Shown: one piece after another, positions 6,599 to 29,220 of the stretch | Position numbering within the stretch: position 1 is the first letter of the stretch | Layout: each line of letters starts with the position of its first letter | Origin: an uncultured Actinomycetota bacterium | Lineage (GTDB): Bacteria; Actinomycetota; Actinomycetes; Sporichthyales; Sporichthyaceae | NCBI GenBank assembly: GCA_963703165.1 | Contig: OY969798.1 | Coordinates: forward strand, 4,622,585 to 4,686,584 | Direction: 5' to 3' | DNA length: 64,000 nt | Position numbers and translations under genes: made by a program | The notes under the pieces: model-generated | Seen by the model: the letters and a program-made list of their open reading frames with translations, nothing else | What the model was told of the DNA's origin: nothing | Database searches by the model: none

Positions 6599-7303
6599 TT
6601 ACCGTCCGCGCGACACCAGCGCAGTCAGCCGCGAGGCGCGGCGACGCAGGTGTTCGACGGCTGTTCGTTCGTCCACTTCACCGCTGACGAACACCAGACA
6701 CAGAGCAGCCAGAGATCCGTCAGCGAACCGCAACGGCGTGGCCAACGCGCTCAGCCCGGGGATCACCTCGCCGGTGGTGCGCACGTAGCCGCTCTCGCGG
6801 GCCCAAGGGATCTCAGGGCGCTCGTCCGGTTGCGGGGGACCGGCGGCGAGGATCGCCAGGCCGGGTGCTCCGCGGTCGAGGCGATGGCGCTGGCCCGGGT
6901 TGTGGGAGACGTGGGCTCGGGACCGGCGTGGTTCGACCGACAACAGCGTCACGGCCTCGGTGCCACTGGGCACCACGAGGAACGCGGTGGCGCCTAGCTC
7001 GTCGGCCAACTCGGCCAGTTCCGGGGTCGCGGCCGCCGCGAGTTCGGTCCGCACCGCGCGGGCGAGCCCGGCGACGGCGAGGCCGAGGCGGTAGCGGCCG
7101 TCGGGTTCGCGCTCGAGGAACGCGCGGTCCTCCAGCGTGCGGACTATGCGGTACGCGATCGAGCGGTGCACGCCGGCGGTGGTGGCGATCTCCGCGACCG
7201 TGCGCGGCAGACCGTCCGCCAATAGCTCGAGGACGTCGAGGCCGCGTTCGAGCGTCTGCAGGCGGACGCCGGCGGGTGCAGGGGGCTCCGGTACGCTCGG
7301 CAT
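6599..7303 (-). CDS. IclR-family transcriptional regulator
   Basis: N-terminal HTH (VRLQTLERGLDVLELLADGLPRTVAEIATTAGVHRSIAYRIVRTLED) and a C-terminal IclR effector domain. The start is at 7303 (MPSVPEP) or 7324. It is divergent from the StyA-like gene with a 64-bp spacer. Confidence 0.8.
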   Translation of the reverse strand: MPSVPEPPAPAGVRLQTLERGLDVLELLADGLPRTVAEIATTAGVHRSIAYRIVRTLEDRAFLEREPDGRYRLGLAVAGLARAVRTELAAAATPELAELADELGATAFLVVPSGTEAVTLLSVEPRRSRAHVSHNPGQRHRLDRGAPGLAILAAGPPQPDERPEIPWARESGYVRTTGEVIPGLSALATPLRFADGSLAALCLVFVSGEVDERTAVEHLRRRASRLTALVSRGR

Positions 7304-7367
7304 CGTTCGCTCATAGAACAGCATGCTCGATATCAGAGCAAGTCCTGCTGCAGATCGGAGTGGCGCC

Positions 7368-8624
7368 ATGACCAACATCGGCATCATCGGAGCGGGTGTC
7401 TCCGCCCTGCACCTGGGCTTGCGACTACGGCAGCACGACATCCCGGTCACCATCTACGCCGAGAAGACAGCCGAGGACCTGACCGGCTCGAAGCTGATGA
7501 ACACCGTCGCGCACCACGCCCCGACCCTGGAGCGGGAACGCCAACTCGGGGTGCACCACTGGGACTCCGCCGAGTACGGCTACTTCTGTCATCACCACTA
7601 CGTCGGTGGGCCGCACCCCATGGCGTTCCGCGGAGACTTCCTCCGCGAGTCCAGCGCGATCGACTACCGGCTCTACCTGCCGCGGCTGATGGCGGACTTC
7701 GAGGAGCGGGGCGGGCGGATCGAGATGCGCGGCGGGATCCAGGCCGACGATCTGGACGGGCTCAGCGCACCGCACGACCTACTGGTGGTCGCGGCGGGCA
7801 AGGGCTCGCTCGGGGCGATGTTCCCCAGGCGCGCGGACAAGTCGCCGTACGACCGGCCGCAGCGGCGGCTGTGCGTCGGGCTCTATCGCGGGATCGCGGA
7901 GTCCGAGCCCAAGGGCGTCACGCTGAGCATCTCGCCGGGAAACGGCGAACTGGTCGAGATCCCCATCCTGACCTTCGAGGGCAAGGTCGCCGCCCTGCTC
8001 TTCGAGAACATCCCGGGCGGCGAACTGGAGATGCTCGCGGACCTCGACCAGGACGCCGACCCGCAGACGTTCGAGGCCACGATCCTCGGTGTGCTGGAGA
8101 AGCACTACCCGTTGACCTTCGAACGGGTGAACCGGGCCGAGTTCGGGCTGACGCGGCCTCAGGACCTCCTGCAGGGCGGGCTGATCCCGCACCTGCGCGC
8201 CGATTACGCCCCACTGGGCAACGGGAAGTTCGCCCTCGCCATGGGCGACGTGCACGCGCTCCACGACCCATTGGTGGGCCAGGGCGCGAACTCCGCGTCA
8301 CACAGCGCCTGGGCGGTCGGCGACGTCATCCTGGAGGACATCGGCTTCGACGAACTGTTCTGCCGACGAGTCGTCCGCCGTCGCTCCGAGGTCGTCGAGG
8401 CGACCATGGACTGGACCAACCTCATGGTCGGCCCCCCGACGCCTCACCTGTTGGCGATGCTGATCGCGATGGCGCAGAACAAGCAGGTCGCCGACGAGTT
8501 CACCGCCAACTTCGGGGCCACGGATCAGCAGTGGACGAACCTCGCGACTCCCGAGCGCACCGCCGCCTATCTGCGCGGCCACGGCATCGACATGGGCGAG
8601 CTTCTCGCCGCGGCGGGGATGTGA
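7368..8624 (+). CDS. StyA/IndA-like FAD-dependent epoxidase (group E flavoprotein monooxygenase, oxygenase component only)
   Basis: MTNIGIIGAGVSALHLGLRLRQHDIPVTIY...LMNTVAHHAPTLERER...YFCHHHYVGGPHPMAFRGDF...AIDYRLYLPRLMADFEERGGRIE...RRLCVGLYRGI...LVGQGANSASHSAWAVGDVIL matches the styrene monooxygenase StyA sequence as I remember it along its whole length. No StyB-like reductase gene is adjacent. Confidence 0.7.
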   Translation: MTNIGIIGAGVSALHLGLRLRQHDIPVTIYAEKTAEDLTGSKLMNTVAHHAPTLERERQLGVHHWDSAEYGYFCHHHYVGGPHPMAFRGDFLRESSAIDYRLYLPRLMADFEERGGRIEMRGGIQADDLDGLSAPHDLLVVAAGKGSLGAMFPRRADKSPYDRPQRRLCVGLYRGIAESEPKGVTLSISPGNGELVEIPILTFEGKVAALLFENIPGGELEMLADLDQDADPQTFEATILGVLEKHYPLTFERVNRAEFGLTRPQDLLQGGLIPHLRADYAPLGNGKFALAMGDVHALHDPLVGQGANSASHSAWAVGDVILEDIGFDELFCRRVVRRRSEVVEATMDWTNLMVGPPTPHLLAMLIAMAQNKQVADEFTANFGATDQQWTNLATPERTAAYLRGHGIDMGELLAAAGM

Positions 8625-11235: not shown

Positions 11236-12399
11236 CTACGAGGAAGCGATGACGCCACGAGCCTCGAAGTCGTAGGTGGTGCCACCGATCTGCAGGGCGT
11301 CGACCGCACCGTGGAACTGGGAGTCACGGCCCTTGCTGATCGCGACGCTGTAGATCGTGGCGTCCGGCACCGCGGCGAGAGCCTGGACCAGGGTGCAGCT
11401 GTTGGCCGCGCCGCAGTTGGTGTCGGTGCCGGTGCCGCCGGTGAAGTACCAGTACCCGTCGGTGGACGCGAACTGGGTCCACGCGTTGCTCGTCGCGGCC
11501 TTGGTCGGGACGAAGTTCAGGGTGCTGTAGGTGCGGCCGGGCAGGTTCGGGTCGACCTCGATGGCGATGTTCGGCAGGTTGCCGGCGCTGATCGCGTTGT
11601 TCTCGCCGGTCTGGTAGACCGAGAAGCTCGGCGAGCCGATGGAGGACAGGGCGTCACCGGCGAAGTCGACCTCGTTACCGAAGGCGGCCTTGTCCGCGGA
11701 GGTGCCCACGTTGATCTCGAGGCTTCCCTTGCCGGACGGCACGTCGGCCAGCGGGCCGGGGCCCTGACGCAGCTGCGAGGTGGCCGAGCCGATGACGTTG
11801 CGCAGGACGCTGCCCCAGTTGGAGTCCACGGCGGCGGAGGCCTCGAGGGCGTCGACACGGGAGTCCAGCGCGGCCAGGTCGGCGTTCACCGCGGCGAGGC
11901 CTGCAACCAGATCCTCGATCGTGCCCTCGGCGGCCTTGATGCGCAGGCGCAGGTTCTCGAGCGCGGTGTCGATCTGGGTGTCCTTGAGCTCGAGCGCGGC
12001 GATGTCGGCGGCCGTCGCGGTGTCAGCGGCCTGCAGGTCCTCGATGTTGCCGAACGCCTCGTCGAACGCCATGCCGACCAGCTCGGCGAAGCCCTCGAGG
12101 CCCTCGTTGAGCTCGTCACGGGCGTCGTCGGACAGGTCCTTGAGCTCGAGCGAGCCGTTGCGGACCTCGGTGCCGCGGACGGTGCCGTTCTCGATGTCGC
12201 GCCAGGTGACCGAGTTGGTCTTGATGTCGGCGCCGGAGACGGTGCCGTTCTTGATGTCCGCGCCGGAGAGCGAGTTGTTCTTGACGTCCTTGCCGGTGAT
12301 GAAACCGTCGGCGGCGGCGGTGCCACCGAGACCCAGGGCCACGACGCCGACGGCGACGGCGGCGATGACGGTCGGACGGCGCAGGTTGTTGAGCTTCAT
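11236..12399 (-). CDS. secreted repeat protein of unknown function (signal peptide, N-terminal short repeats, coiled coil, C-terminal beta-rich domain)
   Basis: MKLNNLRRPTVIAAVAVGVVALGLGGTAAA signal peptide; repeats GADIKNGTVSGADIKTNSVTWRDIENGTVRGTEVRNGSLELKDL; an Ala/Leu/Glu coiled coil; a C-terminal domain with conserved Cys (TDTNCGAANSCTL). No enzymatic motif. Confidence 0.5.
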   Translation of the reverse strand: MKLNNLRRPTVIAAVAVGVVALGLGGTAAADGFITGKDVKNNSLSGADIKNGTVSGADIKTNSVTWRDIENGTVRGTEVRNGSLELKDLSDDARDELNEGLEGFAELVGMAFDEAFGNIEDLQAADTATAADIAALELKDTQIDTALENLRLRIKAAEGTIEDLVAGLAAVNADLAALDSRVDALEASAAVDSNWGSVLRNVIGSATSQLRQGPGPLADVPSGKGSLEINVGTSADKAAFGNEVDFAGDALSSIGSPSFSVYQTGENNAISAGNLPNIAIEVDPNLPGRTYSTLNFVPTKAATSNAWTQFASTDGYWYFTGGTGTDTNCGAANSCTLVQALAAVPDATIYSVAISKGRDSQFHGAVDALQIGGTTYDFEARGVIASS

Positions 12400-12595
12400 T
12401 TCGTGTATCCCCCGTGTGAGTGTCTCTGTGCGCCGTTCCCAACCGGTCGGCGTTGAAGACAACTCTGCGGTGGATCACGAAGATCTACATCGGACGTGCG
12501 GCCCGTCCTGAATCATGTGAATGATGAGTCGCCATCCACCTTTCGGGTGAGATCGGATGAACGCCACCAGAAAGGAACCTGAGCGCCAGACCGGC

Positions 12596-13462
12596 TCAAC
12601 GCTCCCAAACGAGCGGGAAGAGGTCACTGTCGATGCGCTCGCCAGGCGTGAGGTCGGGCAGGTCGACGTGGCCCATGAGCTCGATGTTGCTCCAGGCGTC
12701 ACCGGGGTGCGGCGCCCAGCGCACGTCGTCGCCGGTGTAGACGAGCGTCGTCGCCCGGCGGGCCGTGCGCGCCACGTTGGCGGGGCTGCCGTGCACGGCA
12801 CGGGGGTGGTGCAGGATCACGTCGCCCGGCTCGCACTCGCCGATCAGCCACTCGTGGCGGTGGTACTCGGCGCCGAAGTCGGGGATGGCTTCGAAGCCCG
12901 CGTTGTCGTACACGGAGGCGACCGGGTTGGACTCCTTGAAGCTGCGCGCCCGGTAGATCGGCCCACGGTGCGAGCCCTTGAGGTAGTGCACGGCGCCGTT
13001 GCCGGTGTTCACCACGTCGAGCGGGATCCACAACCGGAGAACCTGATCACCCGTCACGGAGGTGTAGGGCTGATCCTGGTGAAACGGCGTCACCTTCTTC
13101 GAACCGACCTCGCGGGCGAAGATCTGGTCGAAATACAGGTTGAGCCGCTTGGTCGGGGCGAGCACCTGGCGGGCGATCTCCACGCCGGGGCCGGACAGGG
13201 CCCACGCCCGGTGCACCGGGTCGAGGCGCCAGGCATAGGTCAAGGTGAAGAAGCGAGGGCCGTCGCCGCCCGCGAAGTCCATCGAGGGCACGCTCTCGGC
13301 CTGCATCAGGCGATCGGTCGCGGCGCGCAGCGCCTCGATCCAGGACATGGGCAGGATTCGGCGCAGGACGGTCGCGCCGTCCCGCCGGTAGTCGGCGATC
13401 TCGCCCGGCCCGACATTGCGAAGCGGCCCCTCGGTCGGGGCTACCTGTATCGCTCCGGTCAT
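12596..13462 (-). CDS. PhyH-family Fe(II)/2-oxoglutarate dioxygenase
   Basis: HxD...H facial triad context (FHQDQPY...AVHYLKGSHRGP...ILHHPRAVHGSP) typical of the phytanoyl-CoA dioxygenase family. The ATG at 13462 is preceded by a GAAAGGA ribosome-binding site. Confidence 0.7.
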   Translation of the reverse strand: MTGAIQVAPTEGPLRNVGPGEIADYRRDGATVLRRILPMSWIEALRAATDRLMQAESVPSMDFAGGDGPRFFTLTYAWRLDPVHRAWALSGPGVEIARQVLAPTKRLNLYFDQIFAREVGSKKVTPFHQDQPYTSVTGDQVLRLWIPLDVVNTGNGAVHYLKGSHRGPIYRARSFKESNPVASVYDNAGFEAIPDFGAEYHRHEWLIGECEPGDVILHHPRAVHGSPANVARTARRATTLVYTGDDVRWAPHPGDAWSNIELMGHVDLPDLTPGERIDSDLFPLVWER

Positions 13463-13489
13463 CACACCCATAGGTCCTTTCAATCACCT

Positions 13490-13537
13490 GCGACGTCCGA
13501 CGAACACCGTCCTACGGGTCAGTTCGTCGGACGTCGC
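13490..13537 (-). terminator. perfect 16-bp-stem hairpin downstream of the alkene/CoM operon
   Basis: GCGACGTCCGACGAAC-N16-GTTCGTCGGACGTCGC lies 14 nt after the stop of the last operon gene (13551) on the minus strand, followed by a T-containing tract. Confidence 0.5.
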
Positions 13538-13550
13538 TTGCGCAGTGAGG

Positions 13551-14654
13551 CTATTTCGTCAGCTCGGCACGGACGATCGCAGCGCCGTCGGCCAGGGCAC
13601 GGAGCTTGTTCTGCGCGATCATGCGCGGCAGGTTGATCAGCCCACAGTCGGTGCCCAACCCGAGCCGTTCGGCCGGAACGAACTCCATGACCGAGCGGAT
13701 GCGGTCCGCGACCTCGTCGGCGGTCTCCGTGATCGTGCTCTTCACGTCGATGACGCCGGCCACGAACGGCTTGTCCCAGTTGGCGTCGGCCAGCGGCTTG
13801 AGGTCGTCGGGTCCGGTGCGGCCGACCTCGTAGTTCAACGCGGTCACGTTCAGTTGGGTCACCTGCGGGAAGACGGCCTGGGCGCGGTGGGTGCCTGCGT
13901 TGCGGTCGCGGCTGCCGAGCACCGAGGCGTTCCAGACGTCCTTCTCCGTGTCATCGGGCGCGTAGCCGGGCGTGCCCGAGTAGTTGCCCCAGCAGGTGTG
14001 CACCCAGACGTCGCAGCTGACGCCCTCGACCGCGGTGTTGAAGGCGTCGACCTCCCAGTCGCCCATCCCGTAGGGCCAGACGAACTCGTCCATCTGGATG
14101 ATGTCGCAGCCGTTGTCGGCCAACTGCTTGAAGTCCTCGTTGAGGGCCCTGCCGATGGCCTGGGAGAGCTTCTTGATGTCGCCGTAGTGCGTATCGGTCG
14201 CGGCGGCTGCCAACACGCCCACGCCGCAGTAGGAGACCTTCACCGGCTTCTTGGTCGCCTTGCGCACGGCGCGCAGCGTGGCGAGGTGGAACGGGTGCTC
14301 CCGTTTGACGTCGCCGACGCAGGTGGGGGAGTAGAGCGTCGAATAGATCGGCAGCGGGATGGGCGGGCCGGACATCTTGAAGCCGGTCATCCGCTCGTAG
14401 TAGTGGTACACGAAGCCGGCGTAGGCGCTGTCGCCGCCGAAGACCTTGCCGTCGGAGATGATGTCGATCCCCGACATCTCCTGGTCGTGCACGATCGCCA
14501 GCACCGCGTCCTCGAGCGCCTCACGGCTGATCGTGTCGTAGATGAACTCGCCCTTGGGGAAGGTCGCGAACGCCTGCCCGTCGTACCACCGCGGATTCGG
14601 GTAGTTGCCGACCATCGAGGTGGGCAGAAGGATGTCTTGATTTCCGACTCGCAT
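13551..14654 (-). CDS. etnE: MetE-like zinc alkyltransferase; candidate epoxyalkane:coenzyme M transferase (EaCoMT, XecA/EtnE-like)
   Basis: The 367-aa protein has the cobalamin-independent methionine synthase C-terminal fold and Zn ligands (IQMDE, VHTCWGNY, GTDCGL). The ATG at 14654 has a GAGGAG ribosome-binding site. The gene sits directly downstream of 2-KPCC and a short-chain dehydrogenase in the same operon. Confidence 0.6.
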   Translation of the reverse strand: MRVGNQDILLPTSMVGNYPNPRWYDGQAFATFPKGEFIYDTISREALEDAVLAIVHDQEMSGIDIISDGKVFGGDSAYAGFVYHYYERMTGFKMSGPPIPLPIYSTLYSPTCVGDVKREHPFHLATLRAVRKATKKPVKVSYCGVGVLAAAATDTHYGDIKKLSQAIGRALNEDFKQLADNGCDIIQMDEFVWPYGMGDWEVDAFNTAVEGVSCDVWVHTCWGNYSGTPGYAPDDTEKDVWNASVLGSRDRNAGTHRAQAVFPQVTQLNVTALNYEVGRTGPDDLKPLADANWDKPFVAGVIDVKSTITETADEVADRIRSVMEFVPAERLGLGTDCGLINLPRMIAQNKLRALADGAAIVRAELTK

Positions 14655-14676: not shown

Positions 14677-15411
14677 TCAGATCGATGTCCATCCACCGTC
14701 GAGCACGACGGCGGATCCGTTCATGTACGAAAGCCTGCCGGTGGCCAGCAGGGTGATTGCCTCGGCGATGTCGTCGGGAGCGGCGACTCGACCGAGCGGA
14801 ACCTTCGTCTCGATTGCCTCCCGTAGTTCCGGAACGTCCAACCGCCAGGCGGTCATCGGGGTGTGCACCATCCCGGGGCAGATGGCATTGGACCGGATGC
14901 CGGACGGTCCGTAGTCAACCGCCAGCGACTTCGCGAACATCAGGGCGGCACCCTTCGAGGTCGTGTACGCGCAGCGTCCAGGGAAGGCCACCATCCCTGC
15001 CACGGACGCGACAGTGATGACGTGACCGGACCTGCGCTCGAGCATGCCGGGAAGCACGGCGCGTGCACAGAGGTACGGGCCGCGAACATTGACCGCGTGC
15101 ACCCTGTCCCACTCCTCGATCGGGGTGGTGTGACAGGGCCCGGCCGCCGGGGAGCCGGTGATCCCCGCGTTCGCGACGAGCACGTCGACCCGGCCGAACT
15201 CGCGGAGGACGGCCTCGAAGGCGCCGCCGACGCTCGCTGCGTCGGCGACATCGACCTGAGCGGAGAATGCGGCGGAGCCGGCGACCTGCTTCGCCGCGTC
15301 GGCGTCCAGGTCGAGCACAGCGACCTGGAGACCGTCGGCGATCAGGCGCGCGCATGCGGCTGCCCCGATGCCGGAGCCGCCACCTGTGACCACCGCGACC
15401 GCGGCACTCAC
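14677..15411 (-). CDS. short-chain dehydrogenase/reductase; candidate 2-hydroxyalkyl-CoM dehydrogenase
   Basis: TGGGSGIG Rossmann motif, NAG, and a YxxxK catalytic motif (CAYTTSKGAA). The GTG at 15411 overlaps the 2-KPCC stop (GTGA). Length is 244 aa. Confidence 0.7.
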   Translation of the reverse strand: MSAAVAVVTGGGSGIGAAACARLIADGLQVAVLDLDADAAKQVAGSAAFSAQVDVADAASVGGAFEAVLREFGRVDVLVANAGITGSPAAGPCHTTPIEEWDRVHAVNVRGPYLCARAVLPGMLERRSGHVITVASVAGMVAFPGRCAYTTSKGAALMFAKSLAVDYGPSGIRSNAICPGMVHTPMTAWRLDVPELREAIETKVPLGRVAAPDDIAEAITLLATGRLSYMNGSAVVLDGGWTSI

Positions 15412-17006
15412 AGGTCGGTGAGATCCGTGTTGCCGGCGCGCAACCGGGAGAGTTGGATGAAGTGCTCCGGGTTGAGGAACAGCTCGTTCATCCACCCGAT
15501 CTCGTCGATCGTGATGCCCTTCTTGATGAGGTAGTCCAGATACTGGAACGCGTCCTTGGCGCCCATGCCGACGTGGTGCGCGCCGAGCATGCGGCGCGAC
15601 TTGTTGTCGTAGATGCACTTCTGGAATCCGGTCAGTTCCGGCCGGGTGTGCGCGTAGAGCATGGTGCCCTCCGACAACGGCAGGCAGATCTCGTCGTTGC
15701 GGATGCCCTTGGGCGGCATCTGAATCACCGTGATGTCGCCGTACTGCTCCCGGGCCTCCTCCTCGGACAGACCTACCCAGGTGACCTCGTACGTGGTGTG
15801 CAGGAAGTCGGGGTACTCCGAGAAGTCGAACTCGATGTCCTCCCCGGCGATGTTGCGGGCCGCGGTGACGCCGCACTTGCGGGCCTTGAACATCTCCATC
15901 GGGGAGCCGATGAGGTCGCCGATCGCATACACGCCCGGGACGTTGGTCTGCATGCGGCCGTTGACCTTCACGAAGCCCTTCTCGTCCACCTCCACACCGA
16001 GGGTGTCGACGTAGATCTGCGAGGCCGGACGTTCGCCGGTGCCGATGAAGACGAACGAGGTCTCGAAGATTTTCTCGGACCCGTCGGCAAGGCGCACCCG
16101 GACACCGGTGACCGCGCCGTTGATGTCAGCTGTGTCGCCGAGGACCTCGAGCGGTTCGCAGCCCTCGACGATGTCGATGCCGCGCAGCTTCATGTTATCC
16201 ACGACGTAGGTCCGCAGGTCTTCGTCGACGTGGTGCATGCTCTGCGTCCGCATCAGCGGGCTGCGGGACAGGATCGTGGTCCGGCAGCCGGCCGCCTGGT
16301 AGAAGGAGCCGTACTCCATCGCCACCTTGGACCCGCCGATGATCACGCAGCTGTCCGGCTCGAAGTCCAGGCCCGGGTCGATCAGCGAGGCGAAGTCGTA
16401 AACCCCCGGCCTGTCGAGGCTCAGGCCCTTGATCTCCGGCGGGACGTAGGTGTGCGCGCCGGTGGCGAGGACGAGGTTGTCCGAGGTGAAGATCCGTCCG
16501 GCGGCCTCGACGCGGAACTTGCCGTCCTCCGGGGGGAGCACCGTGGCCCACGCGTTGAGAATGTACTCCATGTCCAGTTGTTCCTTGGACTGCCAGTTCA
16601 TGAAGGCGTGCGCGTTGTTCCGGCCGTTCTTGAACAGGTTGATCATGTCGACGATCGAGGCCCTGGACTCATCGAACTTGGGGAACCAGAAAGTGTCGGA
16701 GTTCCAGCGCATGTAATCCATCTCGCGCGCAGCCTCGGAGAAGAGATGGTGCGGGACGCAGGCCTGGTGGGGGCATGAGCCACCGAGGAACGGCCACTTC
16801 TCGACGATGAGCTGGCGCAGCTCGCGGGCTTGGGCGAATGCCGAGCCGAAGCGCCCACCGGCCCCACCGCCGACGTAGATGACGTCGTAGTGGGTGCCCT
16901 TCTCCGTGTGCACATTCTCCAGCGGCTCGGTGACCTCACCAACCTCCGCCTGGTGGATGAGGGTCTCCCACTCGGCCATCGTCAGGTGCGTCTCGCGCAG
17001 GTCCAT
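15408..17006 (-). CDS. xecC: NADPH:2-ketopropyl-CoM oxidoreductase/carboxylase (2-KPCC, DSOR family, XecC-like)
   Basis: QLIVEKWPFLGGSCPHQACVPHHLF redox disulfide, MEMFKARK, DFLHTTYEVTWVGLSEEEAR, and a C-terminus FQKCIYDNKSRRMLGAHHVGMGAKDAFQYLDYLIKKGITIDEIGWMNELFLNPEHFIQLSRLRAGNTDL. This C-terminus carries F-x4-H (FLNPEHF) in place of the usual DSOR His/Glu. All of this matches Xanthobacter 2-KPCC as I remember it. The ATG at 17006 is preceded by an AGGAAGGA ribosome-binding site. Confidence 0.75.
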   Translation of the reverse strand: MDLRETHLTMAEWETLIHQAEVGEVTEPLENVHTEKGTHYDVIYVGGGAGGRFGSAFAQARELRQLIVEKWPFLGGSCPHQACVPHHLFSEAAREMDYMRWNSDTFWFPKFDESRASIVDMINLFKNGRNNAHAFMNWQSKEQLDMEYILNAWATVLPPEDGKFRVEAAGRIFTSDNLVLATGAHTYVPPEIKGLSLDRPGVYDFASLIDPGLDFEPDSCVIIGGSKVAMEYGSFYQAAGCRTTILSRSPLMRTQSMHHVDEDLRTYVVDNMKLRGIDIVEGCEPLEVLGDTADINGAVTGVRVRLADGSEKIFETSFVFIGTGERPASQIYVDTLGVEVDEKGFVKVNGRMQTNVPGVYAIGDLIGSPMEMFKARKCGVTAARNIAGEDIEFDFSEYPDFLHTTYEVTWVGLSEEEAREQYGDITVIQMPPKGIRNDEICLPLSEGTMLYAHTRPELTGFQKCIYDNKSRRMLGAHHVGMGAKDAFQYLDYLIKKGITIDEIGWMNELFLNPEHFIQLSRLRAGNTDLTDL

Positions 17007-17017
17007 GGTTGTCCTTC

Positions 17018-18016
17018 CTAGGGCGTGGCAGGCGTCTCGACGACCACCGCTGGGGTGAAGGCGTCGAAATAGATGTTCCGAGGCCGCACGCCGGCGCCGG
17101 TCAACAGCGGCACAGCGGCGGAGATCATGGGGGGCGGACCGCACAGGTACACGTCGTGGCTCAGGGTCGGGGACCAAGCGGCGATCGCGTCGGTCACGAA
17201 ACCGCCGACAACCGGGTGGAACTCGAAGCCGGGAAGTCGATCGCCGATGGCTGCGATCTCCTCGACGAGGTACAGGTCGGCCTCGGTGCGCGCTCCGAAG
17301 AAGAAGGTGATCGGGCGGTCGAACGCTTTGTCGGCGCAGTCACGGAGCAGCGACAGGATCGGCGCGAGACCGGAGCCACCGGCGATCATCAGCACGGGGC
17401 GGTGCGACAGGCGGATCCGTAGCTGACCGTACGGGCCGTGAACTCGGACGGGGTCGCCGGCGGTGGCCGCGCCGAGGAAGCGGGAGAACGCCCCGTCCGG
17501 GTACAGCTTGACGATCAGGTCGACCCGATCGTCCTGAGCCGGCGCGTTCGCCAACGAGAACGTTCGGACCAGGCCCGACGCGGGGACCTCCACGTTGACG
17601 AACTGCCCGGCGACGAAGGGCATCCGTTCGCCGACGATGCTCAGCCGGATGGCGGCGATGTCCGCGGTCAAGTGCTCGATCGAGTCCACCACGGTGTCGT
17701 AGGGCCGTGAGGTGTCGCCGGAGAGAAACTCGCCCTCGGTCAGCCCGGTGGGGTCGACGTCGACGACACAGTCCTCCAGTGGCACGCTCGCGCAGGCGAG
17801 CATCAGATCCTCGGCCCGGTCCTCGCTCGTCAATGCGAACGAGGACCCGTGCTCTTCGACGTCGCCGTCGACCAGTCGCACCTTGCAGGTCCCGCAGCCG
17901 CCGTACTTGCAGCCGTACTTGAGTAGCAGGTTGTTGCGCAGAGCGCCCTCGAGCACGGTTTCGGTGTCCGCGCACTCATACGAGTGCCCGAACGGCTCGA
18001 TGGTGATCTGCGGCAT
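17018..18016 (-). CDS. etnD: alkene monooxygenase reductase component ([2Fe-2S] ferredoxin plus FNR-like FAD/NAD domains; AmoD/EtnD-like)
   Basis: Plant-type ferredoxin cysteines (CKYGGCGTCKV...LACASVP), then RxFS (RTFSLAN) and a GGSGLAP NAD-binding motif. The ATG at 18016 lies 5 nt after the alpha-subunit stop. Confidence 0.8.
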   Translation of the reverse strand: MPQITIEPFGHSYECADTETVLEGALRNNLLLKYGCKYGGCGTCKVRLVDGDVEEHGSSFALTSEDRAEDLMLACASVPLEDCVVDVDPTGLTEGEFLSGDTSRPYDTVVDSIEHLTADIAAIRLSIVGERMPFVAGQFVNVEVPASGLVRTFSLANAPAQDDRVDLIVKLYPDGAFSRFLGAATAGDPVRVHGPYGQLRIRLSHRPVLMIAGGSGLAPILSLLRDCADKAFDRPITFFFGARTEADLYLVEEIAAIGDRLPGFEFHPVVGGFVTDAIAAWSPTLSHDVYLCGPPPMISAAVPLLTGAGVRPRNIYFDAFTPAVVVETPATP

Positions 18017-18021
18017 CGGAC

Positions 18022-19524
18022 TCAGCCGGCCAACGGGTTGCGGATCTCGTACCCGATCGCGCGGATGTCGTCGATCGTCCACATGCGCGGCAGGTCGAGC
18101 ATCGGCTGACCGATCAGGGTGTGCCCGTCGGGGCGGACCCCGCCCATGTCGAGGATGACGTCGGCCAGGTCCCAACCGTGGTAGCGCTCCCAGAACTGCT
18201 TCCGGTGGCGGTAAGCCTCGGGCCAGTTGCTGAAGACCCACTCGCAGCCCTCGCTGCACAACGCGTAGTTCTTCCCGCCCAGGTCGACGATGCGGGCTTC
18301 GTTGCAGTCCAGGCGCGGCATCACGCACGGCATCTGGCAGACCTGGCAGATCGGCGGCAGCCCAGGGAGCTCCTGCAACATCAGCCGGCCTACGGCAGGA
18401 TCGGCGAGGGCGCGGTAGCCCTCCCAGTAGCCCTGGTAGTAACCGGACCACCCGGGATAGTTGTTCTCGAACCACTCGAAGTCCGCCGGACCGGGGGCGT
18501 CCATCCGCCAGAAGTTCAACGGCCAGATCGCCCCGAGCACCTGGGCGATGGTGTGGTGACCCCACGTCACATCGTTGGCCGCGGCGGCCAGGCGGGAGGG
18601 TGGACGGACCCCGAACTCGGAGAGCCGTTCGACGAAGCCGCCGACGAAGTCGTCGACGACCCATTCCTCCCACTGGTTCTTGTAGCTCCACGGCCGGACC
18701 TTCGAGCCGTACTCGGAGGCGAACCCGACGAGCAGGTCAAACAGGCGGTGGCTGTGCCAGAAGTGCCGGTCCAGCGACTTGTTGAGGATCGGGACGTTCT
18801 CCTCCTCTGCCAGCAGCATCATGATCGCGCCGTAGCCATTGGCCATGTGCCGGGCCTCGTCGGACTGGATCGACATCATGACGCTGGCCAGCGCGTTGTC
18901 GCCGTTGGCCACGGCGACCTGCGGTGTCGCCACGAGCAGGATGTTGGTGTACGCGGTTTCCACGACGATGTTGAGCGCGACGATGCAGTCCAGGGGGTCA
19001 CCGGTGTTGAAGTGCTGGAACTCCCCGATGGTGGCCTGGGTCGCGGGGTGCAGGTACATGGAGCGCTGCCCGACGTCCCACCCGGCTGGGTCGGGGGAGT
19101 TGCGCACGTAGTAGTTGCGCAGCGACATCTCCAACTGCGCGTGGCGTACCTCGTCGAGCATCTGGGCGTTATAGCCCTGGCGCATCTCCTGGTTGTCGAT
19201 CGCCGAGATGATCATCCCGCAGCCGGCGACGGCCTGGTACTCCGCGTTGGTGAGGATCGGCAGGACCGGCTTCATGATCTCGTTGAAGCGCGGCTCGGCG
19301 CGGGTTGCCTCACGCATCCGCACGGCGCCGTCGAGAAACGCATGGGTGCGGTCGTCCTTCTCAGCCTCCATCTTCATGTAGTCCCGGATCAGGACGCGGA
19401 ACGGATCCTTGCCCTTCTTCGGCAGTTTGAACTTCGTCTCGAACTTCGGGCGTGACGTGACCGAGGTGAAGTCCCAGTCGTAGGACTTCGTCTTCTCGTG
19501 CAGCGCGCTGAGACTCGATGGCAT
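18022..19524 (-). CDS. etnC: soluble di-iron alkene monooxygenase alpha (hydroxylase large) subunit (AmoC/EtnC-like)
   Basis: The 500-aa protein carries the two di-iron-carboxylate motifs (DEVRHAQLEM; SIQSDEARHMANGY). It is a soluble di-iron monooxygenase (SDIMO) alpha-fold protein. The ATG at 19524 is preceded by AGGACTGAGGAA. Confidence 0.85.
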   Translation of the reverse strand: MPSSLSALHEKTKSYDWDFTSVTSRPKFETKFKLPKKGKDPFRVLIRDYMKMEAEKDDRTHAFLDGAVRMREATRAEPRFNEIMKPVLPILTNAEYQAVAGCGMIISAIDNQEMRQGYNAQMLDEVRHAQLEMSLRNYYVRNSPDPAGWDVGQRSMYLHPATQATIGEFQHFNTGDPLDCIVALNIVVETAYTNILLVATPQVAVANGDNALASVMMSIQSDEARHMANGYGAIMMLLAEEENVPILNKSLDRHFWHSHRLFDLLVGFASEYGSKVRPWSYKNQWEEWVVDDFVGGFVERLSEFGVRPPSRLAAAANDVTWGHHTIAQVLGAIWPLNFWRMDAPGPADFEWFENNYPGWSGYYQGYWEGYRALADPAVGRLMLQELPGLPPICQVCQMPCVMPRLDCNEARIVDLGGKNYALCSEGCEWVFSNWPEAYRHRKQFWERYHGWDLADVILDMGGVRPDGHTLIGQPMLDLPRMWTIDDIRAIGYEIRNPLAG

Positions 19525-19535
19525 CTGTGGGTTCC

Positions 19536-19841
19536 TCAGTCCTTGAACCGGTCGGGTTGGATGTCTGCGTAGATGTCGACCCGGCCGTCGCCCACGACGA
19601 TGCGCCCGTAGTAGCTGGCCATGTTCACCAGGAAGATGCTGGTGTCGATGTCCCGCCCGGCGATGTCGGACAGCTCGGTCATGTCGAAGCTCAGGACGTC
19701 GTCGCACTCGATCTTGTAGAAGCAGTCGCGGAAGTCGATGACCGCGTTGGGCTGACTTTCCGTCACATGCTCGACGGCTGCCTGGGTGTCGGAGGAATTC
19801 ATCAAGGAGATCCCGACGCGGCGCTTGGTGGTGGTGCTCAT
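19536..19841 (-). CDS. etnB: monooxygenase coupling/effector protein (MmoB/DmpM family; AmoB/EtnB-like)
   Basis: The 101-aa protein MSTTTKRRVGISLMNSSDTQAAVEHVTESQPNAVIDFRDCFYKIECDDVLSFDM... Its ATG at 19841 overlaps the beta-subunit stop (ATGA). Confidence 0.7.
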   Translation of the reverse strand: MSTTTKRRVGISLMNSSDTQAAVEHVTESQPNAVIDFRDCFYKIECDDVLSFDMTELSDIAGRDIDTSIFLVNMASYYGRIVVGDGRVDIYADIQPDRFKD

Positions 19842-20875
19842 GCCGACATCCCTGCCTCGTCGAGCGCCTGGCGCTGACGCTCGAGAGAACGGGTCAACGC
19901 TTCTTTCGCGCCCGCCTCGTTGACGCCGGCCGCGGCGAAGGCGGCGAGGAATGCGGTGGCTGCCGCCTCGCAGCGCGGGCCCCAGTCGTCGAGCCAGCCT
20001 CCGATGACCTTGGCGTTGTCGCCGCCGGTGTCCGGGTCCGCACACACCAGGCGAACCAGGGCGGCCACCCCGGTGATGTGCCGGTCGGTGTCCCGGATGG
20101 CTCCGGCGAGCACCGCGGGGGTCGCGCCGTCGCCGGCGTGCGCGGCGCGGTGGCTGAACAACTCGCTCTTGGCCAGACTGCCCAGCAGGGGTTCGAACAC
20201 CAGCGTGGTGATCACCAGGGCCTCGACCCAGTCCTCGCAGGCCACCAGGTGCTCGACGAGTTCTCGGATCGGCACCAGCGCAGGGTCGGACATCCAGGCC
20301 TCGCGCGCACCGGCGTCGGTGAAGGACTCGTCGGACTCGCCGAGATGATCGAGATGGAAGACGATGTCCTGGAGCAGGCGCATCCGGTCCGCGGCCTGGA
20401 ACACCACGGTGAACTGCACGGTGTCCGACATGGCTTGCCGGACGCCGTAGGCCAGGGACAGGAAGAGCCCGTACTCGACGAACGGCCAGGCGGCGTAGAG
20501 CCGACCCAGCACCTCGTCACGCCACGGGCCGGCCGCACTCGTGCCGCCGGGGCGGGTGAGCACGGGCAGGGTCCGTGCGAGCGCCTGTTGGTCCTGATTC
20601 GTGGCGCTCACGAAGGGGCGTTGCCACATGCCCGCCGGGTCGCGGTAGTCCCGCCACATGCTTGTGCGCACCGCGCTGCTGTCGTCGCTCCACGGCGGGG
20701 TGCCGTCGTCGAAGCGCACCGGCCAGTCGATGTGCAGCCACTGCCCGGGATCCGACTGCTGGCCGATCGTGTACGACTCGTACTCACTGGGCTTCCGCCG
20801 CGCCGGGGTGAACCAGGTGAAATTTCGATCGCCGGAGAATTCCTCAGCCGTGTGGCCGGGCACCGTCGCCGTCAT
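19838..20875 (-). CDS. etnA: soluble di-iron alkene monooxygenase beta (hydroxylase small) subunit (AmoA/EtnA-like)
   Basis: The 345-aa SDIMO beta-type protein is first in the operon. The gene order beta, coupling, alpha, reductase is the group-4 alkene monooxygenase arrangement. Confidence 0.75.
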   Translation of the reverse strand: MTATVPGHTAEEFSGDRNFTWFTPARRKPSEYESYTIGQQSDPGQWLHIDWPVRFDDGTPPWSDDSSAVRTSMWRDYRDPAGMWQRPFVSATNQDQQALARTLPVLTRPGGTSAAGPWRDEVLGRLYAAWPFVEYGLFLSLAYGVRQAMSDTVQFTVVFQAADRMRLLQDIVFHLDHLGESDESFTDAGAREAWMSDPALVPIRELVEHLVACEDWVEALVITTLVFEPLLGSLAKSELFSHRAAHAGDGATPAVLAGAIRDTDRHITGVAALVRLVCADPDTGGDNAKVIGGWLDDWGPRCEAAATAFLAAFAAAGVNEAGAKEALTRSLERQRQALDEAGMSA

Positions 20876-21035: not shown

Positions 21036-23166
21036 GTGACGCTGCTGGCTGCGCGGGTCGGAACGACCTGGCCCACGCTCATCGAGACCCTGCTCGGGTC
21101 GAGAGCTGCTGCCGTCTCGGCGCCGAGGGTCGTCACCGAGACCGTGGCCGAACTGGCCGAGGCGCAAACCGTGGGCATTGTCGAGTGGGTGCGTGACGTG
21201 CCGAGCGTCGTGCACGAGGTCGGGCCGCCGTTGACCTTGACCGTCCGCCCGCCGGCGGGCCGGGCGGATGTCGCCGGCGTTCCCGCGGTGGTCGTCCAGG
21301 TCGATGACCACCGGGACCTGGTGGTGTTGCGCCCGGCAGGCGCCCCGGCGTTCACCGCCGAGGAGGCTGCCGCCATCGAGGCGGTCAGCACACTGCTCGG
21401 GCACTCCGCGGCGTTCGGTCGCAGGGAAGCCGCGGAGACGTTGAACCGGCTTGCGCGGGAGATCGTCGGCACCCTCGACCTCGACCGGGTGCTGCTCTCG
21501 ATCGCCAACTCCGCCGCCCGGTTGCTGGCCTCCGAGGTCACCGGCGTGCTGCTCGTGCACGGTCCGCCCGATCGCCCGGAACTGCGCATGCGCTGCACCG
21601 TCGGGCACCACTCGCCGGAGACTGCCCGGCTACGCATCCCCGCCGGTCGAGGTATGGCCGGCAAGGTGCTGGAGACCGGACGGCCGGCCCGGGTGGACAA
21701 CTACGCGACGGCGGAGTCGATCACCAAGGACTACCTGCCGATCGCGATCGAGGAGGGCACGCACTCCGGCCTCGCCGTGCCCGTGCTCGACGCCGGCGGG
21801 GCGATCATCGGGGTCCTGGCCGCCTGGCGGATGCGCCCCTCGGTCTACACCGACGAGGACGAGCAGGTTCTCGTCTCCTTGGCCGGTCTCGCGTCCATCG
21901 GTCTGGTCAACGCGCGGGCCTACAGCGACCAGCAACGGGTGACCGCCGAACTGGAGGCCGCGCGCACGGAACTGGCCGACCGGCTGGCCATCTCCGACGA
22001 GGCGGTCTCGATCCACCGTCGGCTGACCGCGATCGCGGCCGAGGGGCAGGACCTGTCGCGGTTGGCCGTCGCCGTGCAGGAGATCGTCGACGGCCCCGTG
22101 GTGATTGTGCCCAGCAGCGACCGCTCGGGCGCGCGCTGGCCGCCCGGGGCCGACGTCCCGCGCGAGCAGGACAGCCGACCCCTGCGCGTCGTGGCAGCCG
22201 AGAGCGGAAGGCTCCGGGCCCGTCTGGGTCCGGGTACCCATCGAGGCCGCGGGAGTGCAGCACGGCGTCCTGCACGCGCGGCTGCCCGCCCGGCCGCGGC
22301 CGCGGGACGTCGTCACCCTCGAACAGTCCGCCGTGATCTGCGCCCTGTTGCTCGGCCACGAGGACGCCGTTGCCGCAGCCTCGGCCCGGTTGCGTTCGGA
22401 GTTCGTCTGGGACCTGCTGGAGGGCCGCGGCGACGCGGATCAGGACAACGCGCTGCGGGCGGTCGCACTCGGCCTGCGCCTGGCGTTCCCGGCTCGGCTG
22501 CTCCTGCTGCGTGGCCGAGGGTTGCGGGAACTGGGCCGGAGCGAGGGATGGACTGCCGAGCAGGCCGAACGCAACCGCATCTGGTGGGGTGGGCGGGTCG
22601 CCTCCGCCGTCGAGGAGTTGACCGGGCACCTGGTCCCCGTGGCGCACCGTGACGAGCACGTGATCGCCATCCTGCCCGCGGCGGATGCCACGGCGGCCCA
22701 CGCGGCGGCGGCGGCTGCCCGATGTCCGTTCGGCGACGTCGTGGTGCAGGGCGGGCTGAGCCGCGAGGTGCCGGGACCTGCCGGACTGCCGCAGGCGCTG
22801 CACGAGGCGCGCGTCGCACTGGCCGCGGTGCCCGCCGGTGCCGCGGTCATGCGTTTCGACGACCTGGGGGTGCTCCAGTTCCTGGTCGCGCCCTCGGGCG
22901 GGGAGGGCCTGCACGCCTTCGCGGCCGGCGTGCTGGGGGACCTGATCGCCTACGACCGCAAGCACGGCACGGAGCTGATCGCGACGCTGGACAGCTGGTT
23001 CGAGAACAGCTGCAGTGTCGCGGGCACGGCGCGGGCGATGCGGGTGCACACGAAGACGTTGGCGTATCGGCTCCGCCGGATTCAGGAGGTCTCGGGCCTG
23101 GATCTGACCGATCGTCAGCGCCGCCTGGACGTCGAACTGGCGTTGCGGGTTCTCGGCCCCACGTGA
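21036..23166 (+). CDS. GAF-domain PucR/CdaR-family transcriptional regulator (frame switch near 22215-22235)
   Basis: The N-terminal frame (21036..22652) has a GAF domain (LDLDRVLLSIANSAARLL...AIIGVLAAWRMRPSVYTDEDEQVLVSLAGLASIGLVNARAY). The C-terminal frame (22105..23166) has a PucR C-terminal HTH (MRVHTKTLAYRLRRIQEVSGLDL). The two overlap out of frame, which implies a 1-nt indel. The gene is divergent from etnA. Confidence 0.6.
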
Positions 23167-29219: not shown

Positions 29220-29220
29220 G

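What the first reader, a model, noticed from the sequence alone, without database searches (positions are those of the whole stretch)
15408..17006. 2-KPCC homolog retains the carboxylase-specific F-x4-H substitution of the DSOR catalytic dyad
The C-terminus reads ...NELFLNPEHFIQLSRLRAGNTDLTDL. Canonical disulfide oxidoreductases have His-x4-Glu there. 2-KPCC replaces the dyad with Phe-x4-His to suppress protonation and favour carboxylation. The motif, the CPHQAC redox disulfide and the N-terminal extension are all visible in the translation.
Basis: partly seen in the sequence, partly recalled or inferred. Interest (0 to 1): 0.5.

Follow-up and report, generated by a model that had tools for sequence, protein, structure and literature searches.

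The report
Ordinary 2-KPCC carboxylase in alkene operon

Summary
Window 15408-17006 (minus strand) is one 532-aa CDS. It matches Xanthobacter 2-KPCC (PDB 1MO9) at E=1.5e-156 over its full length (50% identity); the next-best solved protein, a lipoamide dehydrogenase, scores 1e-32. CPHQAC (C78/C83) aligns with C82/C87, and F510/H515 align without gaps with F501/H506. In an alignment with 24 canonical disulfide reductases, F510 falls in the catalytic-His column and H515 in the Glu column. The N-terminal extension of about 33 residues and the roughly 14-residue insertion are present, as are the residues equivalent to R56, H84, H137, M140 and R365.

The dyad is not special to this gene. F is kept in 123/123 close homologues and H in 122/123, and 83 of 84 copies in species-representative genomes have both.

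The gene lies in a nine-gene operon: group-4 alkene monooxygenase beta, coupling, alpha and reductase, then 2-KPCC, an R-HPCDH-like dehydrogenase, an epoxyalkane:CoM transferase and a PhyH dioxygenase. The layout is propene-type, as in Mycolicibacterium NBB4 pmoABCD. The host appears to be a Sporichthyaceae-like actinobacterium, and the flanks look chromosomal.

Oddities: the 64 kb holds no CoM-biosynthesis genes and no S-type dehydrogenase, and the regulator is frameshifted. This is a new member of a known kind, of low interest.

The parts
15408..17006 (-). 2-KPCC homologue, a 532-aa NADPH:2-ketoalkyl-CoM oxidoreductase/carboxylase. C78/C83 (CPHQAC) are encoded at 16758-16775 and F510...H515 (FLNPEH) at 15462-15479.
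14677..15411 (-). Short-chain dehydrogenase of 244 aa, R-2-hydroxypropyl-CoM dehydrogenase-like. Its GTG start overlaps the 2-KPCC TGA stop (GTGA).
   Evidence: PDB 2CFC (R-HPCDH) scores E=1.1e-71, against 3.6e-42 for 4GH5. The equivalents of S142, R152, Y155, K159 and R196 are all conserved in the printed alignment. Start codon; Pfam.
13551..14654 (-). Epoxyalkane:coenzyme M transferase (EtnE/XecA family, MetE-like). The likely start is the ATG at 14654; the ORF is open from the GTG at 14696. The HxC...C zinc motif is visible (VHTCWG, GTDCGL).
   Evidence: Pfam Meth_synt_2. tblastn gives 72.6% to the pNOCA01 copy, 71.9% to the NBB4 EtnE gene and 45.5% to Xanthobacter '2-hydroxypropyl-CoM lyase'. 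Translation; the L003 orthologue starts MRVGNQDILLP.
12596..13483 (-). PhyH-family Fe(II)/2-oxoglutarate dioxygenase and last gene of the operon. Its role is unknown.
   Evidence: Pfam PhyH 2.3e-23. Best solved relative is MysH at 1.2e-29. Homologues lie near 2-KPCC genes in L002, L038 and L062. A terminator-like hairpin sits at 12604-12581.
17018..18016 (-). Alkene monooxygenase reductase (2Fe-2S ferredoxin plus FAD/NAD domains), 332 aa.
18022..19524 (-). Alkene monooxygenase hydroxylase alpha subunit (group 4 SDIMO), about 500 aa.
   Evidence: Pfam Phenol_Hydrox. It is 74.5% identical to the NBB4 pMYCCH.01 alpha subunit (pmoABCD), against 57.8% and 56.6% to EtnC of JS614 and NBB4.
19536..19841 (-). 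Monooxygenase coupling/effector protein (MmoB/DmpM family), 101 aa.
   Evidence: The L002 orthologue carries PF02406.
19838..20875 (-). Alkene monooxygenase hydroxylase beta subunit, 345 aa, first gene of the operon.
21036..23166 (+). Divergently transcribed GAF + PucR/CdaR-type regulator, split into two reading frames by one extra base near 22200.
   Evidence: tblastn of the intact 717-aa L002 orthologue hits 21036-22208 (frame 3) and 22180-23163 (frame 1). Pfam HTH_30 and GGDEF_2 match the 3' part.

Best explanation
The gene encodes a true member of the 2-ketopropyl-CoM oxidoreductase/carboxylase family (EC 1.8.1.5 type). It is the last enzyme of a coenzyme-M-dependent pathway for short-chain alkene assimilation, and the pathway steps are encoded in one operon; coenzyme M supply is not encoded in the window.

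Inferred sequence of events:
1. The group-4 soluble di-iron monooxygenase (beta, coupling, alpha, reductase) epoxidises propene, and probably other C2-C4 alkenes.
2. The EtnE/XecA-type zinc transferase opens the epoxide with coenzyme M.
3. The R-HPCDH-like dehydrogenase oxidises the 2-hydroxyalkyl-CoM to the 2-ketoalkyl-CoM.
4. The flavoenzyme takes electrons from NADPH through FAD to the C78/C83 disulfide. The interchange thiol cleaves the thioether. The enolate is carboxylated by CO2 to a beta-keto acid (acetoacetate from propene), and CoM is released.

F510 replaces the proton-donating His of ordinary disulfide reductases, so the enolate is not protonated to acetone. H515 replaces the Glu and stabilises the carboxylated product.

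Shown here: homology, residue equivalence and gene context. Inferred: the chemistry and the substrate.
For: - **Homology.** Full-length match to Xanthobacter 2-KPCC at E=1.5e-156, more than 120 orders of magnitude better than any other solved DSOR. An AF2 model (pLDDT 79) has the 2-KPCC crystal structures as top Foldseek hits at about 1e-53, against 1e-31 for lipoamide dehydrogenases.
- **Residues.** Equivalents of R56, C82, H84, C87, H137, M140, R365, F501, H506 and Q509 are all conserved, and they are invariant or nearly so in 123 family members.
- **Dyad position.** F510 and H515 fall in the canonical His and Glu columns.
- **Structural extras.** The N-terminal extension and the ~14-residue insertion in the dimerisation domain are present. 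PMC9062435 lists these, with Phe501-His506, as the 2-KPCC-defining features.
- **Operon.** The start of the R-HPCDH-like SDR overlaps the 2-KPCC stop. An EaCoMT gene lies downstream and a four-gene group-4 SDIMO upstream.
- **Propene-type organisation.** The alpha subunit is 74.5% identical to NBB4 PmoC against about 57% to EtnC. NBB4 pmoABCD is likewise followed directly by a 2-KPCC homologue. EaCoMT is clustered with HPCDH and 2-KPCC, with no CoA-transferase or synthetase nearby, which are the criteria of PMC6440738. The divergent CdaR/GAF regulator matches the pmoABCD arrangement (PMC8784404).
Against: - No enzyme from this actinobacterial clade was assayed here.
- The closest named homologues, at 75-80% identity, come from ethene and vinyl-chloride degraders (JS614, JS60, NBB4 pMYCCH.02), whose 2-KPCC-like proteins have no demonstrated reaction.
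- 2-KPCC phylogeny follows host taxonomy rather than the etn or pmo type, so the protein itself does not reveal its substrate.
- The 64-kb window has no CoM-biosynthesis genes.
- There is only one, R-type, dehydrogenase. The relatives L002 and L003 carry a second SDR, and the L003 copy, the only one tested, was weakly S-HPCDH-like.
- The regulator is frameshifted, so the operon may not be fully functional in this strain.
Confidence: 0.8

Rival explanations
1. Same enzyme family, but the physiological pathway is ethene or vinyl-chloride assimilation. The enzyme would act on 2-ketoethyl-CoM, as the proposed 'CoM reductase/carboxylase' that gives malonate semialdehyde, rather than on 2-ketopropyl-CoM.
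For: - The nearest cultured homologues, at 75-80% identity, are in the ethene/VC degraders JS614, JS60, M. vinylchloridicum and NBB4.
- EtnE is about 72% identical to the JS614 and NBB4 copies but only 45.5% to Xanthobacter XecA.
- Only one dehydrogenase is present, and that is sufficient for achiral 2-hydroxyethyl-CoM.
- NBB4 PmoABCD oxidises C2-C8 alkenes (PMC8784404).
Against: - The SDIMO alpha subunit groups with the propene subgroup: 74.5% to PmoC against about 57% to EtnC (subgroups from PMC11825192).
- EaCoMT is not upstream of the monooxygenase genes as it is in etnEABCD.
- No CoA-transferase or acyl-CoA synthetase genes lie nearby, although they accompany the ethene clusters (PMC6440738).
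Confidence: 0.15
2. The gene is intact, but the pathway is decaying or silent in this strain and the carboxylase currently has no physiological role.
For: - The divergent regulator is split by a 1-base insertion relative to the intact L002 orthologue.
- No CoM-biosynthesis genes occur anywhere in the 64 kb, whereas about 35 of the 82 other loci have them within 10 kb.
- The second SDR found in L002 and L003, and the LLM oxidoreductase gene found in L003 and L004, are both missing here.
Against: - All eight structural genes are full-length, with GC3 of 0.87-0.92 where it was measured (the SDR and reductase were not picked up by that scan) and conserved catalytic residues.
- The frameshift may be a sequencing error.
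- The close relatives L002-L004 also lack linked CoM genes, so the genes may simply lie elsewhere in the genome.
Confidence: 0.12
3. It is an ordinary pyridine-nucleotide disulfide reductase, such as a lipoamide dehydrogenase, a mercuric or glutathione reductase or a CoM-disulfide reductase, and its resemblance to 2-KPCC is only superfamily-level.
For: - Pfam sees only the generic Pyr_redox_2 and Pyr_redox_dim domains.
- The top NCBIfam hits are the lipoamide dehydrogenase and MerA models.
- Public annotation calls the homologues 'NAD(P)/FAD-dependent oxidoreductase' or 'dihydrolipoamide dehydrogenase'.
Against: - All NCBIfam hits are far below their curated cut-offs: 168 bits against 409 for lipoamide dehydrogenase and 157 against 454 for MerA.
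- The His-Glu dyad is absent.
- Identity to canonical DSORs is about 30%, against 50% to 2-KPCC.
- The gene context is the epoxide-carboxylase set.
Confidence: 0.01

Closest known systems
Xanthobacter autotrophicus Py2 2-KPCC (XecC; PDB 1MO9, 1MOK, 2C3C, 3Q6J, 7MGN, 7MGO)
   Same: Full-length homologue at 50% identity. It shares the redox cysteines, the Phe-x4-His dyad, the equivalents of H84, H137, M140, R56 and R365, the N-terminal extension and the insertion in the dimerisation domain. It is also clustered with EaCoMT and an R-HPCDH-type dehydrogenase.
   Different: - CPHQAC instead of CPHNAC, W instead of F142, and E instead of T505. These are the majority states in the actinobacterial family, and Xanthobacter is the outlier.
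- The partner monooxygenase is a group-4 SDIMO rather than the Xanthobacter Xamo type.
- There is no S-HPCDH and no linked CoM-biosynthesis genes.
Mycolicibacterium chubuense NBB4 plasmid pMYCCH.01: pmoABCD followed by a 2-KPCC homologue (WP_014805420.1)
   Same: Same gene order of beta, coupling, alpha, reductase, then 2-KPCC, with a divergent GAF/CdaR regulator. The alpha subunit is 74.5% identical and the 2-KPCC 80%.
   Different: - In NBB4 the SDRs, CoA-transferase and CoM-biosynthesis genes lie on the other side of 2-KPCC on a megaplasmid, and no EtnE gene is annotated in the 24 kb inspected.
- Here SDR, EtnE and PhyH follow directly in the same operon.
- The flanks here look chromosomal: cobalamin synthesis, a PBP and a sigma factor.
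2-KPCC homologues of ethene and vinyl-chloride degraders (Nocardioides JS614 pNOCA01, Mycolicibacterium rhodesiae JS60, M. vinylchloridicum)
   Same: 75-80% identity, the same dyad and CPHQAC, and an adjacent R-HPCDH-like SDR.
   Different: Those clusters use etnEABCD, with the transferase upstream of the monooxygenase, plus CoA-transferase/synthetase and linked CoM biosynthesis. Their monooxygenase alpha subunits are only about 57% identical to this one.
Canonical class I disulfide reductases (glutathione reductase, dihydrolipoamide dehydrogenase, MerA)
   Same: Same fold and the same FAD, NADPH and dimerisation domains, with a CxxxxC redox centre.
   Different: - They have a His-x4-Glu dyad where this protein has Phe-x4-His.
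- They lack the ~33-residue N-terminal extension and the ~14-residue insertion.
- Identity is about 30%.

Membership tests
2-KPCC (NADPH:2-ketopropyl-CoM oxidoreductase/carboxylase) family | DSOR fold with FAD, NADPH and dimerisation domains, and closer to 2-KPCC than to any other DSOR | tested here: met
   Pfam Pyr_redox_2 and Pyr_redox_dim. phmmer gives 1MO9 at 1.5e-156, next 1.9e-32. Foldseek of the AF2 model gives 2-KPCC at 1e-53, next 1e-31.
2-KPCC (NADPH:2-ketopropyl-CoM oxidoreductase/carboxylase) family | Redox-active cysteine pair C82/C87 (CxxxxC) | tested here: met
   C78 and C83 in CPHQAC, invariant in 123/123 sequences.
2-KPCC (NADPH:2-ketopropyl-CoM oxidoreductase/carboxylase) family | Phe501/His506 in place of the DSOR His/Glu catalytic dyad (called '2-KPCC-defining residues' in PMC9062435) | tested here: met
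   F510 and H515 align without gaps to F501 and H506. They fall in the His column (22/24) and the Glu column (24/24) of canonical DSORs.
2-KPCC (NADPH:2-ketopropyl-CoM oxidoreductase/carboxylase) family | Extended N-terminus and a 13-residue insertion relative to glutathione reductase (PMC9062435) | tested here: met
   45 residues precede the GxGxxG glycine, against 7-15 in 24 canonical DSORs. An insertion of about 14 residues (KGIRNDEICLPLSEG region) is absent from all canonical sequences. The C-terminal extension was not separately evaluated against GR.
2-KPCC (NADPH:2-ketopropyl-CoM oxidoreductase/carboxylase) family | CoM-sulfonate-binding arginines (R56, R365) and the H84/H137 pair that stabilises the enolate, plus M140. 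These residue roles come from my own knowledge of the Xanthobacter crystal-structure papers. | tested here: met
   R52, H80, H133, M136 and R376 are at the equivalent columns, each invariant in 123/123 sequences. Only conservation was tested, not function.
2-KPCC (NADPH:2-ketopropyl-CoM oxidoreductase/carboxylase) family | Genomic association with epoxyalkane:CoM transferase and 2-hydroxypropyl-CoM dehydrogenase | tested here: met
   An R-HPCDH-like SDR (2CFC, 1.1e-71) and an EtnE/XecA homologue lie immediately downstream in the same operon.
2-KPCC (NADPH:2-ketopropyl-CoM oxidoreductase/carboxylase) family | Catalyses NADPH- and CO2-dependent conversion of 2-ketopropyl-CoM to acetoacetate + CoM | not testable with these tools
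   Requires an enzyme assay.
2-KPCC (NADPH:2-ketopropyl-CoM oxidoreductase/carboxylase) family | The host can make coenzyme M (comA plus xcbB-E type genes) | tested here: inconclusive
   tblastn with the five JS614 CoM-biosynthesis proteins found nothing in the 64-kb window or within 10 kb of the orthologues in L002-L004. The rest of the genome is not available.
Group 4 soluble di-iron alkene monooxygenase, propene subgroup (AmoABCD/PmoABCD) | Four genes in the order beta, coupling, alpha, reductase, with alpha at least 50% identical to group members (criteria of PMC11825192) | tested here: met
   The gene order is 20875 to 17018 on the minus strand. Alpha is 74.5% identical to NBB4 PmoC and about 57% to EtnC. 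No formal tree with AmoC of strain B-276 was built.
Canonical disulfide reductases (lipoamide dehydrogenase, glutathione reductase, MerA) | His-x4-Glu catalytic dyad, and a score above the curated family cut-offs | tested here: not met
   The protein has Phe and His at the dyad columns. All NCBIfam equivalog scores are well under half their cut-offs, for example 168 bits against 408.8.

The most novel reading that the evidence does not exclude
The window may show a compact, chromosomally integrated alkene-to-beta-keto-acid operon (monooxygenase, 2-KPCC, R-HPCDH, EaCoMT and a PhyH dioxygenase) in Sporichthyaceae, a lineage not known to oxidise alkenes. The operon is unlinked from CoM biosynthesis.

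332 species-representative genomes across Actinomycetota, Chloroflexota and Dormibacterota carry 2-KPCC relatives. Of the best 80 loci inspected, most have CoM-biosynthesis genes but no monooxygenase nearby. Together this would mean that CoM-dependent reductive carboxylation is far more widespread in soil bacteria, and less tied to catabolic plasmids, than the roughly 22 known group-4 monooxygenase hosts suggest.
Probability: 0.3. Interest if true: 0.4.

Novelty: new member of a known kind. Interest (0 to 1): 0.15.

Why it matters
Practically, the finding corrects an under-annotation. NCBIfam has no model for this family, and public records call these proteins 'NAD(P)/FAD-dependent oxidoreductase' or 'dihydrolipoamide dehydrogenase'. 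The dyad plus the gene context lets them be named as CO2-fixing 2-ketoalkyl-CoM carboxylases.

Biologically, it adds a Sporichthyaceae-type actinobacterium, with an apparently chromosomal operon, to the short list of hosts of group-4 alkene monooxygenases with the CoM pathway. A 2025 review counted only 22 such sequences, mostly on plasmids.

It does not change what is understood about the enzyme's mechanism.

Tried and rejected
- **Sequence-only alignment of the dyad to glutathione reductase.** HMMER local alignments to GR and DLDH stop before or at the motif, and 'NPE' could be mis-aligned with 'HPT'. This was resolved with a global L-INS-i alignment against 24 canonical representatives and with the PDB variant sequences.
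- **Using 2-KPCC phylogeny to tell propene from ethene.** Rejected, because the NBB4 pmo-linked and etn-linked copies cluster together by host.
- **Looking for CoM-biosynthesis genes in the window.** None were found.
- **The 408-aa ORF downstream (11236-12462) as a pathway gene.** Rejected. It has no family hits and looks like a secreted or anchored repeat and coiled-coil protein.
- **Promoter and terminator scan of the operon.** No sigma-70-like promoters were found, and terminator-like sites were no more frequent than in shuffles.
- **First structure-prediction attempt.** It was repeated with alignment A2.
- **The AF2 monomer model.** It is only moderately confident (pLDDT 79, low around the active-site loop 72-81). 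It was used only for fold ranking, not for residue geometry.
Full report
**1. What is at the coordinates**

Window 15408-17006 is exactly one minus-strand CDS of 532 codons plus a stop. The ATG is at 17006, preceded by GGAAGGA, and lies 12 bases downstream of the stop of the upstream gene. The N-terminus (MDLRETHLTMAEW...) matches the start of the homologues, with D2 nearly invariant and W13 invariant.
- The protein ends ...NELFLNPEHFIQLSRLRAGNTDLTDL.
- FLNPEH is encoded at 15462-15479.
- CPHQAC is encoded at 16758-16775.

**2. Is it a 2-KPCC homologue, and are Phe and His at equivalent positions?**

Yes. The homology evidence is:
- phmmer against all PDB sequences gives Xanthobacter 2-KPCC (1MO9) at E=1.5e-156 over residues 3-531 against 6-522. 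The best other protein, a lipoamide dehydrogenase, scores 1.9e-32.
- Identity to the Xanthobacter enzyme is 50%.
- The last 60 residues align without gaps, NELFLNPEHFIQLSRLRAG against DELFLNPTHFIQLSRLRAG, so F510=F501 and H515=H506.
- The PDB holds the engineered variants 7MGO (ELHLNPTHF, F501H) and 7MGN (ELHLNPTEF, F501H/H506E), which fix which two residues the field treats as the dyad.

Local alignments to ordinary disulfide reductases stop short of the motif. I therefore aligned the protein globally with 24 full-length canonical representatives from the 1.8-billion-protein library. F510 falls in the column that is His in 22 of 24, and H515 in the column that is Glu in 24 of 24.

The same alignment shows two further features:
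- 45 residues precede the FAD-binding glycine, against 7-15 in canonical enzymes.
- An insertion of about 14 residues in the dimerisation domain is absent from all canonical sequences.

PMC9062435 lists these, with Phe501-His506, as the features that distinguish 2-KPCC from glutathione reductase.

An AF2 model (pLDDT 79, pTM 0.82) finds the 2-KPCC crystal structures first, at about 1e-53 and TM 0.72-0.74. Lipoamide dehydrogenases follow at 1e-31.

**3. Other catalytic residues**

The equivalents of Xanthobacter R56, C82, H84, C87, H137, M140, R365 and Q509 are all present. Each is invariant in 123 sequences: the 120 best database homologues plus Xanthobacter, JS614 and the query. The roles of these residues (sulfonate binding, enolate stabilisation) are from my knowledge of the crystal-structure papers; only their conservation was tested here.

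**4. How special is the dyad?**

It is not special.
- Phe is kept in 123/123 close homologues and His in 122/123.
- In 84 copies found in species-representative genomes, which were selected by two other motifs, 83 have both residues.
- 332 species representatives encode a relative. They include Kribbella, Amycolatopsis, Pseudonocardia, Mycobacterium, Chloroflexota and Dormibacterota.

**5. Surroundings**

The gene is the fifth of a tightly packed minus-strand operon:

| Gene | Coordinates |
|---|---|
| Monooxygenase beta | 19838-20875 |
| Coupling protein | 19536-19841 |
| Monooxygenase alpha | 18022-19524 |
| Reductase | 17018-18016 |
| 2-KPCC | 15408-17006 |
| SDR (start overlaps the 2-KPCC stop as GTGA) | 14677-15411 |
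| Epoxyalkane:CoM transferase | 13551-14654 |
| PhyH-family dioxygenase | 12596-13483 |

- **SDR.** It is R-HPCDH-like: 2CFC scores 1.1e-71 against 3.6e-42 for the S-enzyme 4GH5. The catalytic S/Y/K residues and both sulfonate-binding arginines (R152, R196) are conserved.
- **Transferase.** It is about 72% identical to the JS614 and NBB4 EtnE genes and 45.5% to Xanthobacter '2-hydroxypropyl-CoM lyase'.
- **Regulator.** A GAF + PucR/CdaR regulator is transcribed divergently at 21036-23166.

**6. Propene-type or ethene-type?**

Several lines point to propene:
- The alpha subunit is 74.5% identical to the alpha subunit of NBB4 pMYCCH.01, against 57.8% and 56.6% for EtnC of JS614 and NBB4.
- That NBB4 cluster is pmoABCD, assigned to the propene subgroup of group 4 (PMC8784404, PMC11825192). 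It too is followed directly by a 2-KPCC homologue and preceded by a divergent GAF/CdaR gene.
- PMC6440738 separates the two organisations. In propene users, EaCoMT sits with HPCDH and 2-KPCC, and no CoA-transferase or synthetase lies near the monooxygenase. In ethene users, etnE lies upstream of etnABCD with CoA-transferase and synthetase genes nearby. The window fits the first pattern.

The 2-KPCC protein itself does not discriminate, because the pmo-linked and etn-linked NBB4 copies cluster together by host. I therefore favour propene, and perhaps other C3-C4 alkenes, at moderate confidence. Ethene remains a rival.

**7. Host and location**

- The best homologues are from Sporichthyaceae metagenome-assembled genomes at 91-92% identity.
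- Three related contigs (L002-L004) share the operon. Parts of the flanking genes are shared too: the regulator on all three, StyA on L002 and L004, and the sigma factor, methyltransferase, DUF1775 and AmiS on L002.
- The rest of the window encodes cobalamin biosynthesis, a class A PBP, a sigma factor, a KaiC-like ATPase and an acyl-CoA carboxylase.
- The locus therefore looks chromosomal, whereas most described group-4 clusters are on plasmids (PMC11825192). No paper in the library links Sporichthyaceae to alkene oxidation.

**8. Oddities**

- No CoM-biosynthesis genes occur in the 64 kb or within 10 kb of the three closest orthologues, although about 35 of the 82 other loci have them adjacent.
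- The second SDR is missing. L002 and L003 both carry one after EtnE; the L003 copy, the only one searched, has 4GH5 as top PDB hit at 1.9e-53, only marginally ahead of other SDRs.
- The LLM-class oxidoreductase gene that L003 and L004 carry between 2-KPCC and the SDR is also missing here.
- The regulator is split into two frames by one extra base near 22200, relative to the intact 717-aa L002 orthologue.

These features could mean a streamlined operon, a decaying one, or a sequencing error.

**9. Verdict**

The observation and the interpretation are both correct. The gene is a new, uncharacterised member of a known enzyme family in a recognisable pathway operon. Its hallmark dyad is the family norm, so interest is low.

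Noticed in passing
window 21036-23166 (+): The divergent GAF + PucR/CdaR regulator of the operon is split into two reading frames by a single extra base near 22200 (GCCGAGAGCGG against GCCGAG-GCCGG in the intact L002 orthologue). It is either a pseudogene or a sequencing error.
   Followed up: partly
whole window 1-64000; L002-L004: No coenzyme M biosynthesis genes (comA, xcbB-E) lie anywhere in the window or within 10 kb of the three closest orthologous operons. About 35 of the 82 other 2-KPCC loci have them adjacent.
   Followed up: partly
window 13484-13550 compared with L002:13470-14249 and L003:10722-11462; L003:7824-8772 and L004:10042-11002: Gene content varies among close relatives. 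L002 and L003 have a second SDR after EtnE; the L003 copy, the only one searched, is weakly S-HPCDH-like. L003 and L004 have an LLM-class, F420-type oxidoreductase between 2-KPCC and the SDR. The window has neither.
   Followed up: partly
window 12596-13483 (-): A PhyH-family Fe/2OG dioxygenase is the last gene of the operon. Its best solved relative is MysH (1.2e-29). Homologues recur near 2-KPCC genes in L002, L038 and L062. Its role in a CoM pathway is unknown.
   Followed up: partly
window 6599-8624: A StyA-like styrene monooxygenase (NCBIfam StyA 517 bits, cut-off 550) sits with a divergent IclR regulator about 4 kb from the operon. No StyB was seen. Its position is syntenic in L002 and L004, so it may be a second epoxidising enzyme near the CoM genes.
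   Followed up: no
L005:17930-19507: A Sporichthyaceae MAG carries a second 2-KPCC paralogue at 55% identity, with CPHEAC and the C-terminus NELFLNDLIPQLCRLRAG. The Phe is kept but the His506 equivalent is lost.
   Followed up: no
proteins P0122, P0129, P0140: More distant DSOR clades show intermediate states.
- P0122 (46% identity) and P0129 (40%) keep F-x4-H and the FIQLSRL tail, but they lack H84 and part or all of the N-terminal extension.
- P0140 (36%) has His/Met at the dyad columns.
P0122 and P0129 may be uncharacterised carboxylase-like relatives.
   Followed up: no
loci L003-L082: 2-KPCC relatives occur in 332 species-representative genomes across Actinomycetota, Chloroflexota, Dormibacterota and others. 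Only 8 of the 82 fetched loci have a group-4 monooxygenase within 10 kb, so many may serve other CoM-dependent routes.
   Followed up: partly
window 15408-17006 and homologues: NCBIfam has no model for this family: all hits are far below their cut-offs. Public records name the homologues generic oxidoreductase or dihydrolipoamide dehydrogenase, which is a systematic under-annotation.
   Followed up: yes
window 11236-12462 (-): A 408-aa ORF with very high GC3 (0.93) has no family hits. It has an N-terminal hydrophobic anchor, short Gly/Ser/Asp repeats and an Ala/Leu-rich central stretch that looks coiled-coil-like (not tested). A 55% homologue follows EtnE in L004.
   Followed up: no
window 27774-30327 (-): A KaiC-like double ATPase lies next to a fused SpoIIE phosphatase-KaiB-domain protein. 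It is unrelated to the finding.
   Followed up: no
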